Shown piece after piece: positions 3,766-13,022 of a stretch of 14,407 nt of DNA; position 1 is the first letter of the stretch; every line of letters begins with the position of its first letter. This DNA comes from a virus (Duplodnaviria > Heunggongvirae > Uroviricota > Caudoviricetes). The translations under genes and the position numbers were made by a program. The DNA lies in IMG/VR virus record IMGVR_UViG_2874915312_000003, positions 1-14,407 of that record; one strand, 5' to 3'. Below the pieces are notes generated by a model. It had not been told where the DNA came from and ran no database searches. It saw nothing but the letters and a program-made list of their open reading frames with translations.

Positions 3766-3840
<75 letters not shown>

Positions 3841-3843
3841 ATA

Positions 3844-3919
<76 letters not shown>

Positions 3920-3921
3920 GC

Positions 3922-3998
3922 TGGCCCACCACCGAGGACTCGAACCTCGCACCGTCAACTTAGAAGGTTGATGCTCTATCCGGATGAGCTAGTGGTGG
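3922..3998 (-). tRNA. tRNA-Arg (anticodon UCU, reads AGA)
   Basis: Reverse complement CCACCACTAGCTCATCCGGATAGAGCATCAACCTTCTAAGTTGACGGTGCGAGGTTCGAGTCCTCGGTGGTGGGCCA. Perfect 7-bp acceptor stem, anticodon loop CTTCTAA, T-loop TTCGAGT. Confidence 0.75.
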
Positions 3999-3999
3999 T

Positions 4000-4076
4000 T
4001 GGTGGCCCTTGCTGGACTTGAACCAGCGACCTGGCGATTATGAGTCGCTCGCTCTGACCAACTGAGCTAAAGGGCC
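4000..4076 (-). tRNA. tRNA with CAU anticodon, ileX/ileY-like (Ile2/lysidine type more likely than Met)
   Basis: Reverse complement GGCCCTTTAGCTCAGTTGGTCAGAGCGAGCGACTCATAATCGCCAGGTCGCTGGTTCAAGTCCAGCAAGGGCCACCA. Resembles E. coli tRNA-Ile2 as remembered. Ile versus Met identity cannot be settled by eye. Confidence 0.7.
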
Positions 4077-6109: not shown

Positions 6110-6272
6110 AACGATAACTCCGTACATTTGGAAATTATCGCCACCGACGACGCCAATCGAACTGGTGGCGAACTGTGCAGGGTTGGCGTAACCGGGTACG
6201 GAAACCGGCGAGCCTTTCGGCTCCCCCACACAGCCCGCCATAAATCGCGAATGTGACTGTGCAAACGATATG

Positions 6273-6294
6273 AAAAAAGACGCGGGCGCGTCTC
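6273..6294 (-). terminator. Candidate tR'-like intrinsic terminator
   Basis: Minus strand reads GACGC-GCCC-GCGTC followed by TTTTTT, about 55-75 nt downstream of the candidate late promoter. Confidence 0.4.
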
Positions 6295-6355
6295 ATATCG
6301 CTCCGTAAACATCCGGGACGCCAATCCCGACGCCAGATTTTGCTGGCGCGTGAGG

Positions 6356-6385
6356 AATATAGCCCCGGATAACAGATTGAGTCAA
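6356..6385 (-). promoter_or_regulatory. Candidate late promoter pR' (-35 TTGACT, 18-bp spacer, -10 TATATT)
   Basis: The -35 hexamer at 6385..6380 overlaps the Q stop codon (TGA at 6384..6382). The -10 is at 6361..6356. Lambdoid pR' sits immediately after Q. Confidence 0.5.
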
Positions 6386-7822: not shown

Positions 7823-7955
7823 CGTAGTTCTCCGCTGGCGCAGTAGAATGGGTGTTCAGCCCGTTATGTAGTATACCAGAATTAATGCCAATACTAACAG
7901 GGTAATGCTGCCAACTTACTGATTTAGTGTATGATGGTGATTTTAAGGTGCTTGC

Positions 7956-8231
7956 GTGGCTTCCATTTCCATCAGATGTCCTTCCTGCTCCGCTACTGAA
8001 GGCGTGGTGCGTAACGGCAAAAGCACTGCCGGGCATCAGCGCTATCTCTGCTCTCATTGCCGTAAAACATGGCAACTACAGTTCACTTACACCGCCTCTC
8101 AGCCCGGTACGCACCAGAAAATCATTGATATGGCCATGAATGGCGTCGGATGTCGCGCCAGTGCACGCATTATGGGCGTTGGCCTCAACACGGTTTTACG
8201 TCACTTAAAAAACTCAGGCCGCAGTCGGTAA
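7956..8231 (+). CDS. insA: IS1 InsA
   Basis: [40 protein letters not shown]..., 91 aa. Confidence 0.9.
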
Positions 8232-8653
8232 CCTCGCGCATACAACCGGGCAGTGATGTGATTGTCTGCGCTGAAATGGACGAACATTGGGGCTACGTCG
8301 GTGCTAAATCACGTCAGCGCTGGCTGTTTTACGCGTATGACAGGATACGGAGGACGGTTGTGGCGCACGTCTTCGGTGAACGCACTCTGGCCACACTGGA
8401 GCGTCTTCTGAGCCTGCTGTCGGCCTTTGAGGTCGTGGTATGGATGACGGATGGCTGGCCGCTGTATGAATCACGCCTGAAGGGAAAGCTGCACGTTATC
8501 AGCAAGCGTTACACTCAGCGCATTGAGCGACATAATCTGAATCTGAGACAACATCTGGCAAGGCTGGGACGGAAGTCACTGTCGTTCTCAAAATCGGTGG
8601 AGCTGCATGACAAGGTCATCGGGCATTATCTGAACATAAAACACTATCAGTAA
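8150..8653 (+). CDS. insB: IS1 insB reading frame (expressed as InsAB' fusion by -1 frameshift at the A6C motif near 8207)
   Basis: 167-codon ORF overlapping the insA 3' end. TTAAAAAACTC slippery motif present. Confidence 0.85.
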
Positions 8654-8752
8654 GTTGGAGTCATTACCTACTAACAGGATGTTCTGACTCGCAATTCGGT
8701 AATGCTGCCAACTTACTGATTTAGTGTATGATGGTGATTTTAAGGTGCTTGC

Positions 8753-9028
8753 GTGGCTTCCATTTCCATCAGATGTCCTTCCTGCTCCGCTACTGAAGGC
8801 GTGGTGCGTAACGGCAAAAGCACTGCCGGACATCAGCGCTATCTCTGCTCTCATTGCCGTAAAACATGGCAACTACAGTTCACTTACACCGCCTCTCAGC
8901 CCGGTACGCACCAGAAAATCATTGATATGGCCATGAATGGCGTCGGATGTCGCGCCAGTGCACGCATTATGGGCGTTGGCCTCAACAGGGTTTTACGTCA
9001 CTTAAAAAACTCAGGCCGCAGTCGGTAA
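8753..9028 (+). CDS. insA: IS1 InsA (copy 2; T->R substitution relative to copies 1 and 3)
   Basis: GLNRVLRHL versus GLNTVLRHL in the other copies. Confidence 0.9.
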
Positions 9029-9450
9029 CCTCGCGCATACAACCGGGCAGTGATGTGATTGTCTGCGCTGAAATGGACGAACATTGGGGCTACGTCGGTG
9101 CTAAATCACGTCAGCGCTGGCTGTTTTACGCGTATGACAGGATACGGAGGACGGTTGTGGCGCACGTCTTCGGTGAACGCACTCTGGCCACACTGGAGCG
9201 TCTTCTGAGCCTGCTGTCGGCCTTTGAGGTCGTGGTATGGATGACGGATGGCTGTCCGCTGTATGAATCACGCCTGAAGGGAAAGCTGCACGTTATCAGC
9301 AAGCGTTACACTCAGCGCATTGAGCGACATAATCTGAATCTGAGACAACATCTGGCAAGGCTGGGACGGAAGTCACTGTCGTTCTCAAAATCGGTGGAGC
9401 TGCATGACAAGGTCATCGGGCATTATCTGAACATAAAACACTATCAGTAA
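8947..9450 (+). CDS. insB: IS1 insB frame (copy 2; W->C substitution, DGCPLYES versus DGWPLYES)
   Basis: Direct comparison of the three copies within the window. Confidence 0.85.
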
Positions 9451-9698
9451 GTTGGAGTCATTACCCGCAATTCATCCAGCAGTTTATCATTTCCCATAAT
9501 GTCACTTACCCTCATCGGTAAAAAAATTGCCTTTCGACCATTACGATACATTATTGATTTTGGGGTTTCAGGGAAGTAATCCATTTCGACTATAACTGAC
9601 AGGTCATCACGACGTATGACTGCGTATTTGCTACTAAATAGTTTCTTTATTTTTTCCACGATGCCTCCAGGTTTATAAGTACAAACGGTTATATCCAC
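9444..9698 (-). CDS. Rem-like small prophage protein; last 5 native codons replaced by 6 IS1-derived codons
   Basis: GTG start at 9698. Removing both IS1 copies and one copy of each duplication restores an 83-codon ORF ending ...LLDELRVRTSC, with its stop inside the copy-1 target duplication. Position (upstream of Q and nin proteins, downstream of hokD) mirrors rem in K-12 Qin. Identity to Rem is from memory. Confidence 0.5.
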
Positions 9699-9842: not shown

Positions 9843-9867
9843 ACAAAAAACCCGCCGAAGCGGGTTT
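9843..9867 (-). terminator. Rho-independent terminator downstream of hok
   Basis: Minus strand reads AAACCCGC-TTCG-GCGGGTTT followed by TTTTGTTG, 68 nt after the hok stop. Confidence 0.7.
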
Positions 9868-9934
9868 AGTGCGGGTGCGTTGAGGATGCCTGACACATGA
9901 GAGGTGGCGAGGGATTTCTCCCCCGCCTGGTCTC

Positions 9935-10090
9935 TTACTCCTCAGGTTCGTAAGCTGTGAAGACAGCGACCTCCGTCTGGCCGGTTCGGATTCGTACCTC
10001 GCAGAGGTCTTTCCTCGTTACCAGTGCCGTCACTATGACGGTTAAACAGATGACGATCAGGGCGATTAACATCGCCTTTTGCTGCTTCAT
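9935..10090 (-). CDS. hokD: Hok/Gef-family type I toxin, HokD (RelF)-like
   Basis: 51-aa MKQQKAMLIALIVICLTVIVTALVTRKDLCEVRIRTGQTEVAVFTAYEPEE matches K-12 HokD as remembered. SD AAGGAG is 8 nt upstream. Track ORF 9935..10147 adds an in-frame 19-codon upstream extension (MSHKCRLASYVPKGKEKQA). Confidence 0.8.
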   Translation of the reverse strand: MKQQKAMLIALIVICLTVIVTALVTRKDLCEVRIRTGQTEVAVFTAYEPEE

Positions 10091-10431
10091 AGCCTGCTTC
10101 TCCTTGCCTTTCGGCACGTAAGAGGCTAACCTACATTTGTGAGACATAGATTGGGCCTCAGATTAATGTTAAGCGTCTTGCAGGACGCGTAATGTTAACT
10201 GGGGCTTTTCTCTGTCTGCCTTACAGTGGCATGCCCGAGGCAGACAGCCTCAAGCACCCGCAGCAATCTTACCGATACCGATAAGAAAACGCTATTTTTT
10301 ATTGCCAGCACCTTCTATCCAGGCTAATTTATCTGCGTCAGAACGGCGCAATGCGCTCGCCTGAGATACGTTTACTTGCCATGGTAACAACAGGTAACGG
10401 CAATTGCTGTTTCTGTTTTGTTTCCTTCAAA

Positions 10432-10456
10432 AACCCCGGACCATCAATCCGGGGTT
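10432..10456. terminator. Terminator-like hairpin AACCCCGGA-CCATCAA-TCCGGGGTT with T-runs on both sides
   Basis: Plus strand is followed by TTTTTGTTTGTT (stronger); minus strand by TTTTTGAAGG. Sits directly 3' of the 27-aa peptide ORF. Confidence 0.5.
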
Positions 10457-10464
10457 TTTGTTTG

Positions 10465-10548
10465 TTAACCCCAACGGCAAATCGAATACACCACCATCGC
10501 CATCGCCATCGCAATTCCTACCGTGGTGAATGCCTCAGGCCAGGTCAT
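10465..10548 (-). CDS. Candidate 27-aa hydrophobic peptide (MTWPEAFTTVGIAMAMAMVVYSICRWG)
   Basis: Not in the ORF track (below size cutoff). ATG at 10548 has SD GGAGGTG (5-nt spacer) and overlaps the stop of the upstream frame as ATGA. TAA at 10467-10465 is followed at once by the hairpin. Contains three tandem GCGATG codon pairs (plus-strand CATCGC x3 at 10495-10512). Confidence 0.35.
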   Translation of the reverse strand: MTWPEAFTTVGIAMAMAMVVYSICRWG

Positions 10549-10906
10549 TGATTCACCTCCTGCGGTGGTTCCGGTAGCGGCATCCAGTGAGTTGAGCTCT
10601 CTACTTCAACGCCGTCTTTGTCCACAAAAGCCATCTTATTCCCGCCACGAGTGGGGCAAAAAACCTTATCCCAGGAACCGGGGAATACATTCCCGAGATC
10701 ATCGAGAAGAATCACATCGCAATATTCAGCAGGAACTGCATCACTACAGCTTATCCAGCTAGAGTTACCGGAGAGTTGCCAGCCTTACGCATGGCCATTT
10801 CCACGATTTCAACCATATCTCCTGGTGGAATTTTACAAAGTTGCCCAATACATTTCTGCTGCCTGGCATATTCGAGAATGTGCTCCAATTTGGTTCGATT
10901 AATCAT
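10545..10906 (-). pseudogene. Gene split into two frames: 51-aa N-terminal ORF (10906..10751) plus 79-codon open frame (10784..10545), probable frameshift
   Basis: Frame A MINRTKLEHILEYARQQKCIGQLCKIPPGDMVEIVEMAMRKAGNSPVTLAG has SD AAGGGAG and overlaps the upstream stop (TAATG). Frame B ...SCSDAVPAEYCDVILLDDLGNVFPGSWDKVFCPTRGGNKMAFVDKDGVEVESSTHWMPLPEPPQEVNQ has no plausible start of its own. The frames overlap at 10751-10784 around a direct repeat AACTCT x2. Confidence 0.35.
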
Positions 10907-11933: not shown

Positions 11934-12189
11934 ATCAGCTTTCCTTATACGGATTAATTTTATTGTGCAGTGTGTTGAATGACGCCCATACCACGTCGTT
12001 ATACAATTCAATAACTGGCTCAATTATTTTTCCGATTATCCAGACAAAAATTAGCGGGGATATCGGTGTCATCAACACGATAAACAGAATGAGAAACAGG
12101 AATTCTGTTGTTCTACTCTTTCGCGGATATTTTTGGTAATGCTGCCAACTTACTGATTTAGTGTATGATGGTGATTTTAAGGTGCTTGC

Positions 12190-12465
12190 GTGGCTTCCAT
12201 TTCCATCAGATGTCCTTCCTGCTCCGCTACTGAAGGCGTGGTGCGTAACGGCAAAAGCACTGCCGGACATCAGCGCTATCTCTGCTCTCATTGCCGTAAA
12301 ACATGGCAACTACAGTTCACTTACACCGCCTCTCAGCCCGGTACGCACCAGAAAATCATTGATATGGCCATGAATGGCGTCGGATGTCGCGCCAGTGCAC
12401 GCATTATGGGCGTTGGCCTCAACACGGTTTTACGTCACTTAAAAAACTCAGGCCGCAGTCGGTAA
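12190..12465 (+). CDS. insA: IS1 InsA (copy 3)
   Basis: Protein identical to copy 1 InsA. Confidence 0.9.
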
Positions 12466-12887
12466 CCTCGCGCATACAACCGGGCAGTGATGTGATTGTC
12501 TGCGCTGAAATGGACGAACATTGGGGCTACGTCGGTGCTAAATCACGTCAGCGCTGGCTGTTTTACGCGTATGACAGGATACGGAGGACGGTTGTGGCGC
12601 ACGTCTTCGGTGAACGCACTCTGGCCACACTGGAGCGTCTTCTGAGCCTGCTGTCGGCCTTTGAGGTCGTGGTATGGATGACGGATGGCTGGCCGCTGTA
12701 TGAATCACGCCTGAAGGGAAAGCTGCACGTTATCAGCAAGCGTTACACTCAGCGCATTGAGCGACATAATCTGAATCTGAGACAACATCTGGCAAGGCTG
12801 GGACGGAAGTCACTGTCGTTCTCAAAATCGGTGGAGCTGCATGACAAGGTCATCGGGCATTATCTGAACATAAAACACTATCAGTAA
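12384..12887 (+). CDS. insB: IS1 insB frame (copy 3)
   Basis: Protein identical to copy 1. Confidence 0.85.
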
Positions 12888-13022
12888 GTTGGAGTCATTA
12901 CCGATATTTTTTTCTAAATAATGTAACCATTCATTACCGCCCTTTCGGGCGGTCTCCTGATGATTTGAGGGTGCAGAAATCCCTCCGGTTAGAGATTAAA
13001 TTTTTAACAGTGCTAAATTTAA

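What the first reader, a model, noticed from the sequence alone, without database searches (positions are those of the whole stretch)
9843..10300. hokD-like toxin locus without relBE, with a structured leader
The 51-aa Hok toxin ORF is intact with its own SD and terminator. In K-12 Qin, hokD (relF) is the third gene of relB-relE-hokD (established knowledge). Here no RelE or RelB reading frame exists in any minus-strand frame for 450 bp upstream. The presumed leader carries a 10-bp inverted repeat (10212-10221 / 10238-10247, 16-nt loop) and two 9-bp direct repeats TAATGTTAA (10164-10172, 10190-10198) flanking a 5-bp hairpin. An in-frame 19-codon upstream extension (ATG at 10147) could play a mok-like role. 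Whether a Sok-type antisense RNA exists on the plus strand cannot be decided by eye.
Basis: partly seen in the sequence, partly recalled or inferred. Interest (0 to 1): 0.55.

Follow-up and report, generated by a model that had tools for sequence, protein, structure and literature searches.

The report
Complete prophage hok/mok/sok toxin-antitoxin cassette

Summary
Together they form a complete type I toxin-antitoxin cassette, window about 9846-10271, with hok and mok on the minus strand and sok on the plus strand. The toxin is 51/51 identical to K-12 HokD. The leader matches the Rfam hok-leader model at 118 bits. The cassette is about 93% identical to hokW/mokW/sokW of phage 933W/Sp5, which has been shown experimentally to be a type I TA system. 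The annotated sokW and sokC RNAs both map to window 10139 to about 10212 on the plus strand. The sok promoter (TTGCCT, 17 nt, TAACCT) is identical to that of sokW. All canonical RNA switch elements are present and covary across 41 loci from more than 10 genera: tac/fbi, the metastable 5' hairpin, tac/ucb, ucb/SD-mok and SD-mok/dcb. The in-frame 70-codon extension is mok, as in mokW and mokC. No relBE trace exists. K-12 hokD shares homology only from the hok Shine-Dalgarno onward. The full leader occurs in 4262 of 5426 complete E. coli genomes, and the relE-hokD junction in 1167. Verdict: observation confirmed, interpretation supported, already known, low interest.

The parts
10266..10271 (-). 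Putative hok promoter -10 hexamer TAAGAT, 6 nt upstream of the inferred mRNA start. The -35 is poor (TAGCGT at 17-nt spacing).
   Evidence: Read directly from the sequence. The aligned position reads TAGAAT, TATAAT or TACAAT in relatives. The consensus promoter scan did not flag it. Inferred, not shown.
9846..10259 (-). Full-length hok mRNA, about 414 nt. The start (+/-2 nt) is placed by homology to the R1 hok mRNA 5' end and to the start of the Rfam model. The 3' end follows the terminator.
10231..10259 (-). tac element. nt 1-12 pair with fbi in the full-length mRNA. nt 3-13 pair with nt 19-29 to form the metastable hairpin of the nascent transcript.
   Evidence: tac/fbi pairs are in the minimum-free-energy fold. 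The metastable hairpin has -21.2 kcal/mol and z -3.82 and is 95.6% paired across 41 loci, against 32-47% for slid controls.
10212..10247 (-). Inner tac stem-loop.
   Evidence: The helix is 85% paired, with 4 pairs changed on both sides.
10201..10207 (-). ucb (anti-SD) element AAGCCCC. It pairs with SD-mok in the closed full-length form and with the 5' tac nucleotides in the processed open form.
   Evidence: The tac/ucb helix is 96.5% paired.
10160..10200 (-). Sok-target hairpin, whose complement is the Sok terminator stem.
   Evidence: The apical stem is present in 16 hokD/hokW-type loci and absent from hokC-type loci.
10156..10159 (-). mok Shine-Dalgarno GAGG, 8 nt upstream of the mok ATG.
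   Evidence: coordinates and window pairs. Both alternative partners are conserved, in 35-40 of 41 loci for ucb and 36-40 of 41 for dcb.
9935..10147 (-). mok reading frame, 70 codons, in frame with hok. Its product is Hok with a 19-aa N-terminal extension.
   Evidence: The start is at the same aligned position as annotated mokW and mokC.
10122..10126 (-). dcb element GCCUC, which pairs with SD-mok in the processed mRNA.
   Evidence: The 5 pairs are conserved in 36-40 of 41 loci.
10104..10132 (+). sok promoter: -35 TTGCCT (10104-10109), 17-nt spacer, -10 TAACCT (10127-10132).
   Evidence: The segment is identical to 933W. The -10 was validated by mutation for sokW. It falls below the threshold of the generic scan.
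10139..10212 (+). Sok antisense RNA, about 71-74 nt. It has a single-stranded 5' tail complementary to the mok start region, followed by a long terminator-like hairpin and a CUUUUCUC tail.
   Evidence: Annotated sokW and sokC map here. The fold is -30.7 kcal/mol, z -5.75. Expression is not shown for this copy.
10100..10105 (-). hok Shine-Dalgarno AAGGAG. K-12 hokD homology begins here.
9935..10090 (-). hok toxin gene, 51 aa plus stop. The protein is identical to K-12 HokD.
   Evidence: 100% over 51 aa. Pfam HOK_GEF scores 81.6 bits against a cut-off of 22. PHROG 251 'MokW-like host killing' matches.
9906..9927 (-). 3' stem-loop GGCGGGGGAGAAAUCCCUCGCC, expected to form the protected 3' end of the processed mRNA.
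   Evidence: The helix is 95-96% paired with compensatory changes. Its role is inferred from R1 (PMC9841398).
9873..9885 (-). fbi element CCUCAACGCACCC. It pairs with mRNA nt 1-12, giving 12 pairs and one bulge.
   Evidence: The helix is 89% paired. Pair 4/384 is U-A in 30 loci, C-G in 7 and U-G in 4.
9848..9867 (-). Intrinsic terminator of hok mRNA: an 8-bp stem, a 4-nt loop and a T run.

Best explanation
Window 9846-10271 is an intact hok/mok/sok type I toxin-antitoxin cassette of the hokD/hokW subtype. It sits as an accessory gene in the early-right (nin to Q) region of a lambdoid prophage.

Mechanism, by homology to R1 hok/sok and Sp5 hokW-sokW:
1. A weak promoter makes a roughly 414-nt hok mRNA.
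2. While the transcript is nascent, its 5' end is locked in a metastable hairpin.
3. Once complete, the 5' tac element pairs with the 3' fbi element and ucb sequesters the mok Shine-Dalgarno. The stable mRNA is then neither translated nor bound by Sok.
4. Slow 3' trimming removes fbi, probably back to the stem-loop at 9906-9927.
5. The 5' end refolds into tac/ucb and SD-mok/dcb, which exposes the mok start region.
6. The short-lived roughly 71-nt Sok RNA (10139 to about 10212, plus strand, with its own promoter) pairs with that region and blocks mok translation. The duplex is cleaved by RNase III.
7. If Sok is lost, for example through prophage loss, transcription shut-off or prophage induction, mok is translated. 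Coupled hok translation then yields the 51-aa membrane toxin.

Shown here: the presence, integrity, homology and covariation of every sequence element.
Inferred: transcription start sites, 3' processing, Sok instability, toxicity and any biological role in this host.
For: - The Rfam hok-leader model RF01794 matches 10085-10259 (-) over its full length at 118.1 bits, E 6.6e-27.
- Hok is 100% identical to K-12 HokD and matches Pfam HOK_GEF at 81.6 bits.
- The cassette is 92.8% identical over 93% of its length to the annotated hokW/mokW/sokW of 933W and VT2-Sakai. That locus is experimentally a type I TA system (PMC8621323).
- sokW and sokC map to 10139 to about 10209-10215 on the plus strand.
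- The sok promoter segment is identical to 933W and includes the -10 hexamer mutated in the promoter-less sokW construct.
- The Sok fold has z -5.75.
- The minimum-free-energy fold of the full-length mRNA contains the 12-bp 5'-3' tac/fbi closure and the ucb/SD-mok hairpin. The truncated mRNA refolds into tac/ucb.
- On 41 loci from Escherichia, Shigella, Kluyvera, Citrobacter, Pseudocitrobacter, Photorhabdus, Erwinia, Pantoea, Kalamiella and an R1-type plasmid, the closed structure is 83.5% paired, the open structure 84.6% and the metastable hairpin 95.6%. Slid controls give 32-49%, and 0 of 500 shuffles reach the observed covariation.
- tac nucleotide 4 covaries with both of its alternative partners: U-A 30, C-G 7, U-G 4 with fbi, and U-A 31, C-G 6, U-G 3 in the metastable hairpin.
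- The full leader is present in 4262 of 5426 complete E. coli genomes.
Against: - No expression data exist for this copy.
- The hok promoter has only a recognisable -10. Neither the hok nor the sok promoter passes the generic consensus scan.
[quoted passage not shown] Intact sequence therefore does not prove activity.
- Pair counts use structures derived from the window sequence, which favours them over the slid controls.
- The helix around the mok start is only 60.5% paired.
Confidence: 0.9

Rival explanations
1. Silent relic: the cassette looks intact, but it is a transcriptionally or functionally inert chromosomal copy carried along in a decaying, IS1-riddled prophage.
For: Chromosomal hok loci tested natively did not give post-segregational killing, and K-12 hok loci are described as non-functional (PMC7232551). 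The prophage is damaged by three IS1 copies, one of which truncates the next ORF downstream. The hok promoter's -35 is poor.
Against: No element is disrupted. All pairs of the closed and open structures listed for the window are standard pairs. The toxin is identical to HokD, which is toxic when expressed. The sok promoter is identical to that of functional sokW. The nearest IS1 end lies about 380 bp beyond the terminator. The 436-nt cassette is 100% identical in two other genomes.
Confidence: 0.1
2. Remnant of a relB-relE-hokD operon that lost relBE by deletion, so that the 'leader' is unrelated filler sequence.
For: The toxin is identical to K-12 HokD. The relE-hokD junction is fairly common, being present in 1167 of 5426 E. 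coli genomes.
Against: There is no RelB or RelE similarity at protein or DNA level. The leader is homologous along its whole length to hok leaders of hokW, hokC, R1 and other genera. K-12 homology starts only at the hok Shine-Dalgarno, with relE sequence replacing the promoter, tac, ucb, the Sok target, the mok start and the sok -10. K-12 is therefore the derived form.
Confidence: 0.01
3. The minus-strand Rfam 'sok' hit is itself the antitoxin gene, which would put Sok on the same strand as hok.
For: Rfam labels RF01794 'sok antitoxin', and the hit is on the minus strand.
Against: The same model hits the hok-sense strand in K-12 hokC, 933W and an R1-type plasmid, which is opposite to the annotated sokC and sokW. 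The model spans the mok start and ends at the hok ATG, so it describes the hok mRNA leader.
Confidence: 0.01

Closest known systems
hokW/mokW/sokW of Stx2 phage 933W / Sakai prophage Sp5 (Takada et al. 2021, PMC8621323)
   Same: 92.8% DNA identity over 93% of the cassette. Same element order. mok is in frame with hok at the same ATG position. The sequence is identical from the sok -10 through the sok -35 to the hok ATG. The Sok hairpin has the same extended form with the GCGTC/GACGC tip.
   Different: The toxin C-terminus is FTAYEPEE here and FVDYESEK in HokW. The Sok 5' tail and mok start region differ at several positions. 933W lacks the terminator hairpin found at 9848-9867. In 933W the cassette lies near the right end of the phage genome; here it lies between DUF551 remnants and the DUF1367/YbcO/Q genes.
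relB-relE-hokD (relF) of K-12 cryptic prophage Qin
   Same: Identical 51-aa toxin, and the same hok SD, 3' UTR and fbi. Both lie upstream of a prophage Q antiterminator gene.
   Different: K-12 lacks the hok promoter, tac, ucb, the Sok target, the mok start and the sok -10. The relE 3' end abuts the hok SD. The window has no relBE.
hokC/mokC/sokC (gef) of the E. coli K-12 chromosome
   Same: Same leader architecture, with an Rfam score of 118.3 bits. mokC is in frame with hokC. sokC maps to the same position.
   Different: About 75% DNA identity. The Sok-target hairpin is shorter, lacking the apical stem of roughly 18 nt, and sokC is 59 nt. In K-12 the 3' end, including fbi, is cut off by IS186.
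hok/sok of plasmid R1 (parB), the mechanistic paradigm
   Same: All named elements (tac, fbi, ucb, dcb, SD-mok, the metastable hairpin and the Sok promoter position) align and covary.
   Different: The DNA is distant: this cassette's blastn search against plasmids found no R1-type record over its full length, and the R1-type leader scores 88.9 bits with RF01794. HokW, which is closely related to the toxin here, is 44% identical to R1 Hok. mok is out of frame with hok in R1. R1 hok/sok is plasmid-borne with a proven post-segregational killing role.

Membership tests
[quoted passage not shown] | A small (about 50 aa) Hok/Gef membrane toxin ORF | tested here: met
   Pfam PF01848 scores 81.6 bits against a cut-off of 22. 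The protein is 51/51 identical to HokD.
[quoted passage not shown] | An overlapping upstream mok reading frame with its own SD, starting inside the Sok target | tested here: met
   ATG at 10147 with GAGG 8 nt upstream. It aligns with annotated mokW and mokC. The frame relative to hok varies across the family: in frame in 24 loci, +1 in 10 and +2 in 5 of 41.
[quoted passage not shown] | A cis-encoded antisense Sok RNA with its own promoter, complementary to the mok translation initiation region | tested here: met
   At sequence level only. Annotated sokW and sokC map to 10139 to about 10212 (+). The promoter TTGCCT-17-TAACCT is identical to that of validated sokW. The hairpin fold has z -5.75. 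Expression of this copy could not be tested.
[quoted passage not shown] | Long-range tac/fbi pairing that closes the full-length mRNA | tested here: met
   12 pairs, nt 1-12 with nt 375-387, in the minimum-free-energy fold. 89% paired across 41 loci, with 5 pairs changed on both sides.
[quoted passage not shown] | Alternative pairings: ucb/SD-mok in the closed form versus tac/ucb plus SD-mok/dcb in the open form | tested here: met
   All pairs are standard in the window. In the closed form the five ucb/SD-mok pairs are conserved in 35-40 of 41 loci, and the helix that contains them is 85% paired. tac/ucb is 96.5% paired, and the SD-mok/dcb pairs are conserved in 36-40 of 41 loci. Most of these pairs are nearly invariant, so the support comes from conservation more than from covariation.
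[quoted passage not shown] | A metastable 5' hairpin in the nascent transcript | tested here: met
   -21.2 kcal/mol, z -3.82. 95.6% paired, with 5 pairs changed on both sides.
[quoted passage not shown] | 3' processing of hok mRNA, Sok instability, RNase III cleavage of the duplex, and toxicity when Sok is lost | not testable with these tools
   Shown for R1 (PMC9841398) and in part for hokW-sokW (PMC8621323). Not shown for this copy.
relBE-hokD operon (K-12 Qin arrangement) | relB and relE immediately upstream of hokD and co-oriented with it, with relE abutting the hok SD | tested here: not met
   tblastn and blastn find no relB or relE in the window. The alignment shows a hok leader where K-12 has relE.
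hokW-sokW of Sp5/933W (closest characterised locus) | Near-identical cassette sequence including the sok promoter | tested here: met
   92.8% identity over 93% of the cassette. The promoter-to-hok-ATG segment is identical.
hokW-sokW of Sp5/933W (closest characterised locus) | Same position in the phage genome | tested here: not met
   In 933W the cassette is at 58.4-58.8 kb of 61.7 kb, next to L0139 and L0136. Here it lies between DUF551 remnants and DUF1367/YbcO/Q, as in E. coli AVS0790 and phage Rac 442/2.

The most novel reading that the evidence does not exclude
The cassette is co-oriented with the prophage early-right genes (DUF551 to hok to DUF1367 to YbcO to Q). In this variant it lies directly behind a rare 193-nt spacer that carries a strong terminator hairpin. 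The cassette could therefore act as an induction-gated lysis helper. In the lysogen the terminator would insulate hok. After induction, antiterminated read-through would run against the sok promoter and silence Sok by transcriptional interference, releasing Hok. That would explain mechanistically the RecA-dependent disappearance of sokW RNA reported for Sp5. The in-frame mok would then also yield a 70-aa extended Hok with its own activity.
Probability: 0.12. Interest if true: 0.45.

Novelty: already known. Interest (0 to 1): 0.1.

Why it matters
It matters little as a discovery. The locus type was annotated in phage 933W, has been characterised experimentally in Sp5, and occurs in about four of five complete E. 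coli genomes. The useful outcomes are practical.
- RefSeq annotates only the hokD CDS at these loci. Nothing is annotated under the leader, so mok and sok are invisible in RefSeq.
- The Rfam 'sok' model is oriented as the hok mRNA leader, so its strand must not be read as the antitoxin strand.
- K-12 relBE-hokD should not be used as the reference architecture for hokD.

Tried and rejected
- **relBE remnant.** tblastn with K-12 RelB, RelE, Rem and YdfV, plus word-size-7 blastn of relBE DNA against the window, found nothing.
- **Generic promoter scan.** It flagged neither the hok nor the sok promoter. I relied instead on homology to the mutationally validated sokW -10.
- **K-12 Rem homologue downstream.** None was found. 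The 84-aa ORF at 9444-9698 belongs to PHROG 1813 and is cut by IS1.
- **Direct repeats as a repeat family or binding sites.** Rejected. They are the two arms of one imperfect palindromic hairpin.
- **Minus-strand Rfam hit as Sok itself.** Rejected by strand comparison with annotated sokC and sokW.
- **First helix definition.** My first definition of the inner tac stem was off by one position and was corrected before counting.
- **Pedersen & Gerdes 1999.** This paper is not in the held library. Its conclusions are cited second-hand from PMC7232551, PMC5630033 and the 2026 bioRxiv preprint.
- **Not used.** No structure prediction or large protein-database search was run, because the identity was unambiguous.

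Full report
**Observation**

- The 51-aa ORF lies at 9935-10090 (-).
- An in-frame ATG at 10147 extends it to 70 aa.
- A perfect 10-bp inverted repeat lies at 10212-10221 and 10238-10247.
- Two copies of TAATGTTAA lie at 10164 and 10190. They are the only two in the window and they flank GCGTC..GACGC.
- AAGGAG lies upstream of the hok ATG, and an intrinsic terminator hairpin lies at 9867-9848.
- tblastn with K-12 RelB and RelE and sensitive blastn with relBE DNA find nothing in the window. The one exception is the 14-nt hok Shine-Dalgarno segment that K-12 shares.

**Identity**

- The Rfam covariance model RF01794 matches 10085-10259 on the minus strand over its full length at 118.1 bits, against a gathering score of 59 (E 6.6e-27).
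- The toxin is 51/51 identical to K-12 HokD. It matches Pfam HOK_GEF and PHROG 251 'MokW-like host killing'.
- Against phage records, the 431-nt cassette is 92.8% identical over 93% of its length to phage 933W and VT2-Sakai (Sp5). There it is annotated as mokW, hokW and the SokW antisense RNA.
- Takada et al. 2021 (PMC8621323) showed that HokW is toxic, that sokW transcribed from its own promoter neutralises it, and that the locus assists lysis and phage release after mitomycin C.
- The cassette over 436 nt is 100% identical to loci in Shigella flexneri SFBU1023 and in one genome labelled E. coli. Together with three IS1 copies, this suggests a Shigella-type host.

**Relation to K-12 hokD**

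I aligned the window with 933W, phage Rac 442/2, K-12 hokC, K-12 relE-hokD and two E. coli prophages.
- Homology to the hok family runs from the -10 region at about 10271 to the terminator.
- K-12 hokD is homologous only from the hok Shine-Dalgarno (about 10104) onward. Upstream of that point K-12 carries the 3' end of relE.
- K-12 therefore lacks the hok promoter, tac, ucb, the Sok target, the mok start and the sok -10. [quoted passage not shown]
- The 157-nt leader alone is found at 80% coverage or better in 4262 of 5426 complete E. coli genomes (8690 places in all). The relE-hokD junction is found in 1167 genomes.

The complete, relBE-free form is thus the common one.

**Anatomy**

Below, mRNA position = 10260 minus the window coordinate.
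- The inferred start is G at 10259, preceded by TAAGAT at 10271-10266.
- Nucleotides 1-12 (tac) pair with CCUCAACGCACCC at 9885-9873 (fbi) in the minimum-free-energy fold of the 414-nt RNA. That fold has z -7.59.
- AAGCCCC (ucb, 10207-10201) can pair either with the mok SD GAGG(C) at 10159-10155 or with the 5' GGGUGCUU.
- The mok SD can alternatively pair with GCCUC (dcb, 10126-10122).
This hairpin is the Sok-target hairpin, and its complement forms the Sok terminator stem.
- A 35-nt 5' fragment folds into the metastable hairpin at -21.2 kcal/mol.
- These are exactly the elements defined for R1 hok mRNA (PMC9841398).

**Sok**

- The annotated sokW (933W) and sokC (K-12) map through the alignment to window 10139 to about 10209-10215 on the plus strand.
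- Upstream lie TTGCCT (10104-10109) and TAACCT (10127-10132), separated by 17 nt.
- This whole segment is identical in 933W.
- The primers used to build the promoter-less sokW construct replace precisely this TAACCT.
- The 74-nt RNA folds into a single-stranded 5' tail plus a long hairpin (z -5.75).
- Rfam RF01794 is named 'sok', but it hits the hok-sense strand in K-12 hokC, 933W and an R1-type plasmid, opposite to the annotated Sok RNAs. The model therefore describes the hok leader.

**Comparative test**

A scan of one genome per species with the Hok protein returned 53 loci. I aligned 41 distinct cassettes. They come from Escherichia species, Shigella, Kluyvera, Citrobacter, Pseudocitrobacter, Photorhabdus, Erwinia, Pantoea and Kalamiella, plus the two phages (933W, Rac 442/2) and an R1-type plasmid.

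| Structure | Cells paired | Slid controls | Shuffles reaching the observed covariation |
|---|---|---|---|
| Closed, full-length | 83.5% | 38-47% | 0 of 500 |
| Open, processed | 84.6% | 40-49% | 0 of 500 |
| Metastable hairpin | 95.6% | 32-47% | 0 of 500 |

- tac position 4 covaries with both of its alternative partners. With fbi the counts are U-A 30, C-G 7 and U-G 4. In the metastable hairpin they are U-A 31, C-G 6 and U-G 3. This is the coupled covariation typical of the hok family. I recall that Gultyaev et al. 1997 first described it, but that paper was not read here.
- Caveat: the structures were derived from the window sequence, which favours them over the slid controls. Many pairs are simply invariant.

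**mok**

The ATG at 10147 aligns with the starts of annotated mokW and mokC, both of which share their stop codon with hok and are therefore in frame. Across the 41 loci, mok is in frame with hok in 24, in the +1 frame in 10 (including R1 and Rac 442/2), and in the +2 frame as a 19-codon ORF in 5. It is absent in 2. What is conserved is translation across the region, not the peptide. This fits the known coupling role of mok.

**Context**

The cassette sits in a lambdoid early-right region, and all genes listed below lie on the minus strand.
- DUF551 remnants and a 27-aa hydrophobic ORF lie upstream.
- A PHROG 1813 ORF truncated by IS1 lies downstream.
- Two tandem IS1 copies follow.
- Next come DUF1367, YbcO and a Q-like antiterminator, and then the isrK/C4 RNAs and tRNAs.
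- The same hok position, two to three genes upstream of Q, is seen in E. coli AVS0790, strain 2009C-3378, phage Rac 442/2 and K-12 Qin. In 933W the cassette lies near the right end of the genome.

**Verdict**

The open question about Sok is answered by homology to two annotated Sok RNAs, one of them experimentally validated. Nothing distinguishes this copy from a very common and well-described module. Whether it is active in this host remains untested. Native chromosomal hok loci have been reported inactive in post-segregational killing assays, so a silent but intact copy remains a minor rival. Novelty: already known. Interest: low.

Noticed in passing
window 7901-8668, 8698-9465 and about 12135-12902: There are three IS1 copies. 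Two are in tandem, 29 bp apart, and the right end of the second truncates the 84-aa PHROG 1813 ORF at 9444-9698 (-). That point is about 380 bp beyond the hok terminator, so the hok cassette itself is untouched.
   Followed up: partly
window 10465-10548 (-): A 27-aa hydrophobic ORF, MTWPEAFTTVGIAMAMAMVVYSICRWG, overlaps the stop of the DUF551 ORF (10545-10715) by ATGA. tblastn finds it in 88 phage records. In several of them (for example vB_EcoM-606R7, vB_EcoS-689R5 and vB_Apl-pPE4) it ends about 36 nt upstream of the hok cassette, and a related ORF end precedes hokW in 933W. It may be a linked small membrane protein gene. Its function is unknown.
   Followed up: partly
window 10272-10464: A 193-nt unannotated spacer lies between that small ORF and the hok promoter. 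It carries a 13-bp palindromic terminator-like hairpin (10428-10460) and a second hairpin (10396-10411). It is rare, occurring in 39 of 5426 E. coli genomes, while the cassette next to it is nearly ubiquitous.
   Followed up: partly
window 9947-9952 (-): The Tyr47 codon UAC sits in UACGAA, and this hexamer is invariant in all 41 aligned hok loci. [quoted passage not shown]
   Followed up: partly
window 10085-10259; L004 502-654; L005 1509-1683: Rfam RF01794, named 'sok antitoxin', is oriented as the hok mRNA leader and therefore hits the strand opposite to annotated sokC and sokW. RefSeq lists no feature under the leader in the E. coli genomes sampled.
   Followed up: yes
L032 (Kluyvera sp. 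CHPC 1.2972) 900-1650; L048; L011: The relB-relE-hok junction is not specific to K-12. A Kluyvera genome has RelB 99% and RelE 97% identical to K-12, joined at the same point to a different hok allele. That Hok is about 70% identical to HokD and closest to a Citrobacter youngae locus that has a full leader. Another genome carries a decayed relE.
   Followed up: partly
L010 (genome labelled E. coli ECMA0423) about 1322-1750: A second hokD-type copy in the same genome as an identical match to the window has a diverged 5' end: the tac sequence is replaced by GACTGCATGTGGCTATGTGCC. It is probably a decaying cassette.
   Followed up: no
L022, L027, L060; phage record PP818812.1: Near-identical hokD cassettes appear on very short contigs attributed to Acinetobacter idrijaensis, Xanthomonas pisi and a 'Candidatus Scatousia' MAG, and in an 'Actinobacillus phage'. 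These are probably E. coli contamination or mislabelled hosts.
   Followed up: no
window 3769-4076 and 6161-6362 (-): Four tRNA genes and the C4 antisense, isrK and c4-a1b1 RNA elements lie downstream of the Q-like antiterminator gene, as is typical of Stx-phage-like late-region leaders.
   Followed up: no
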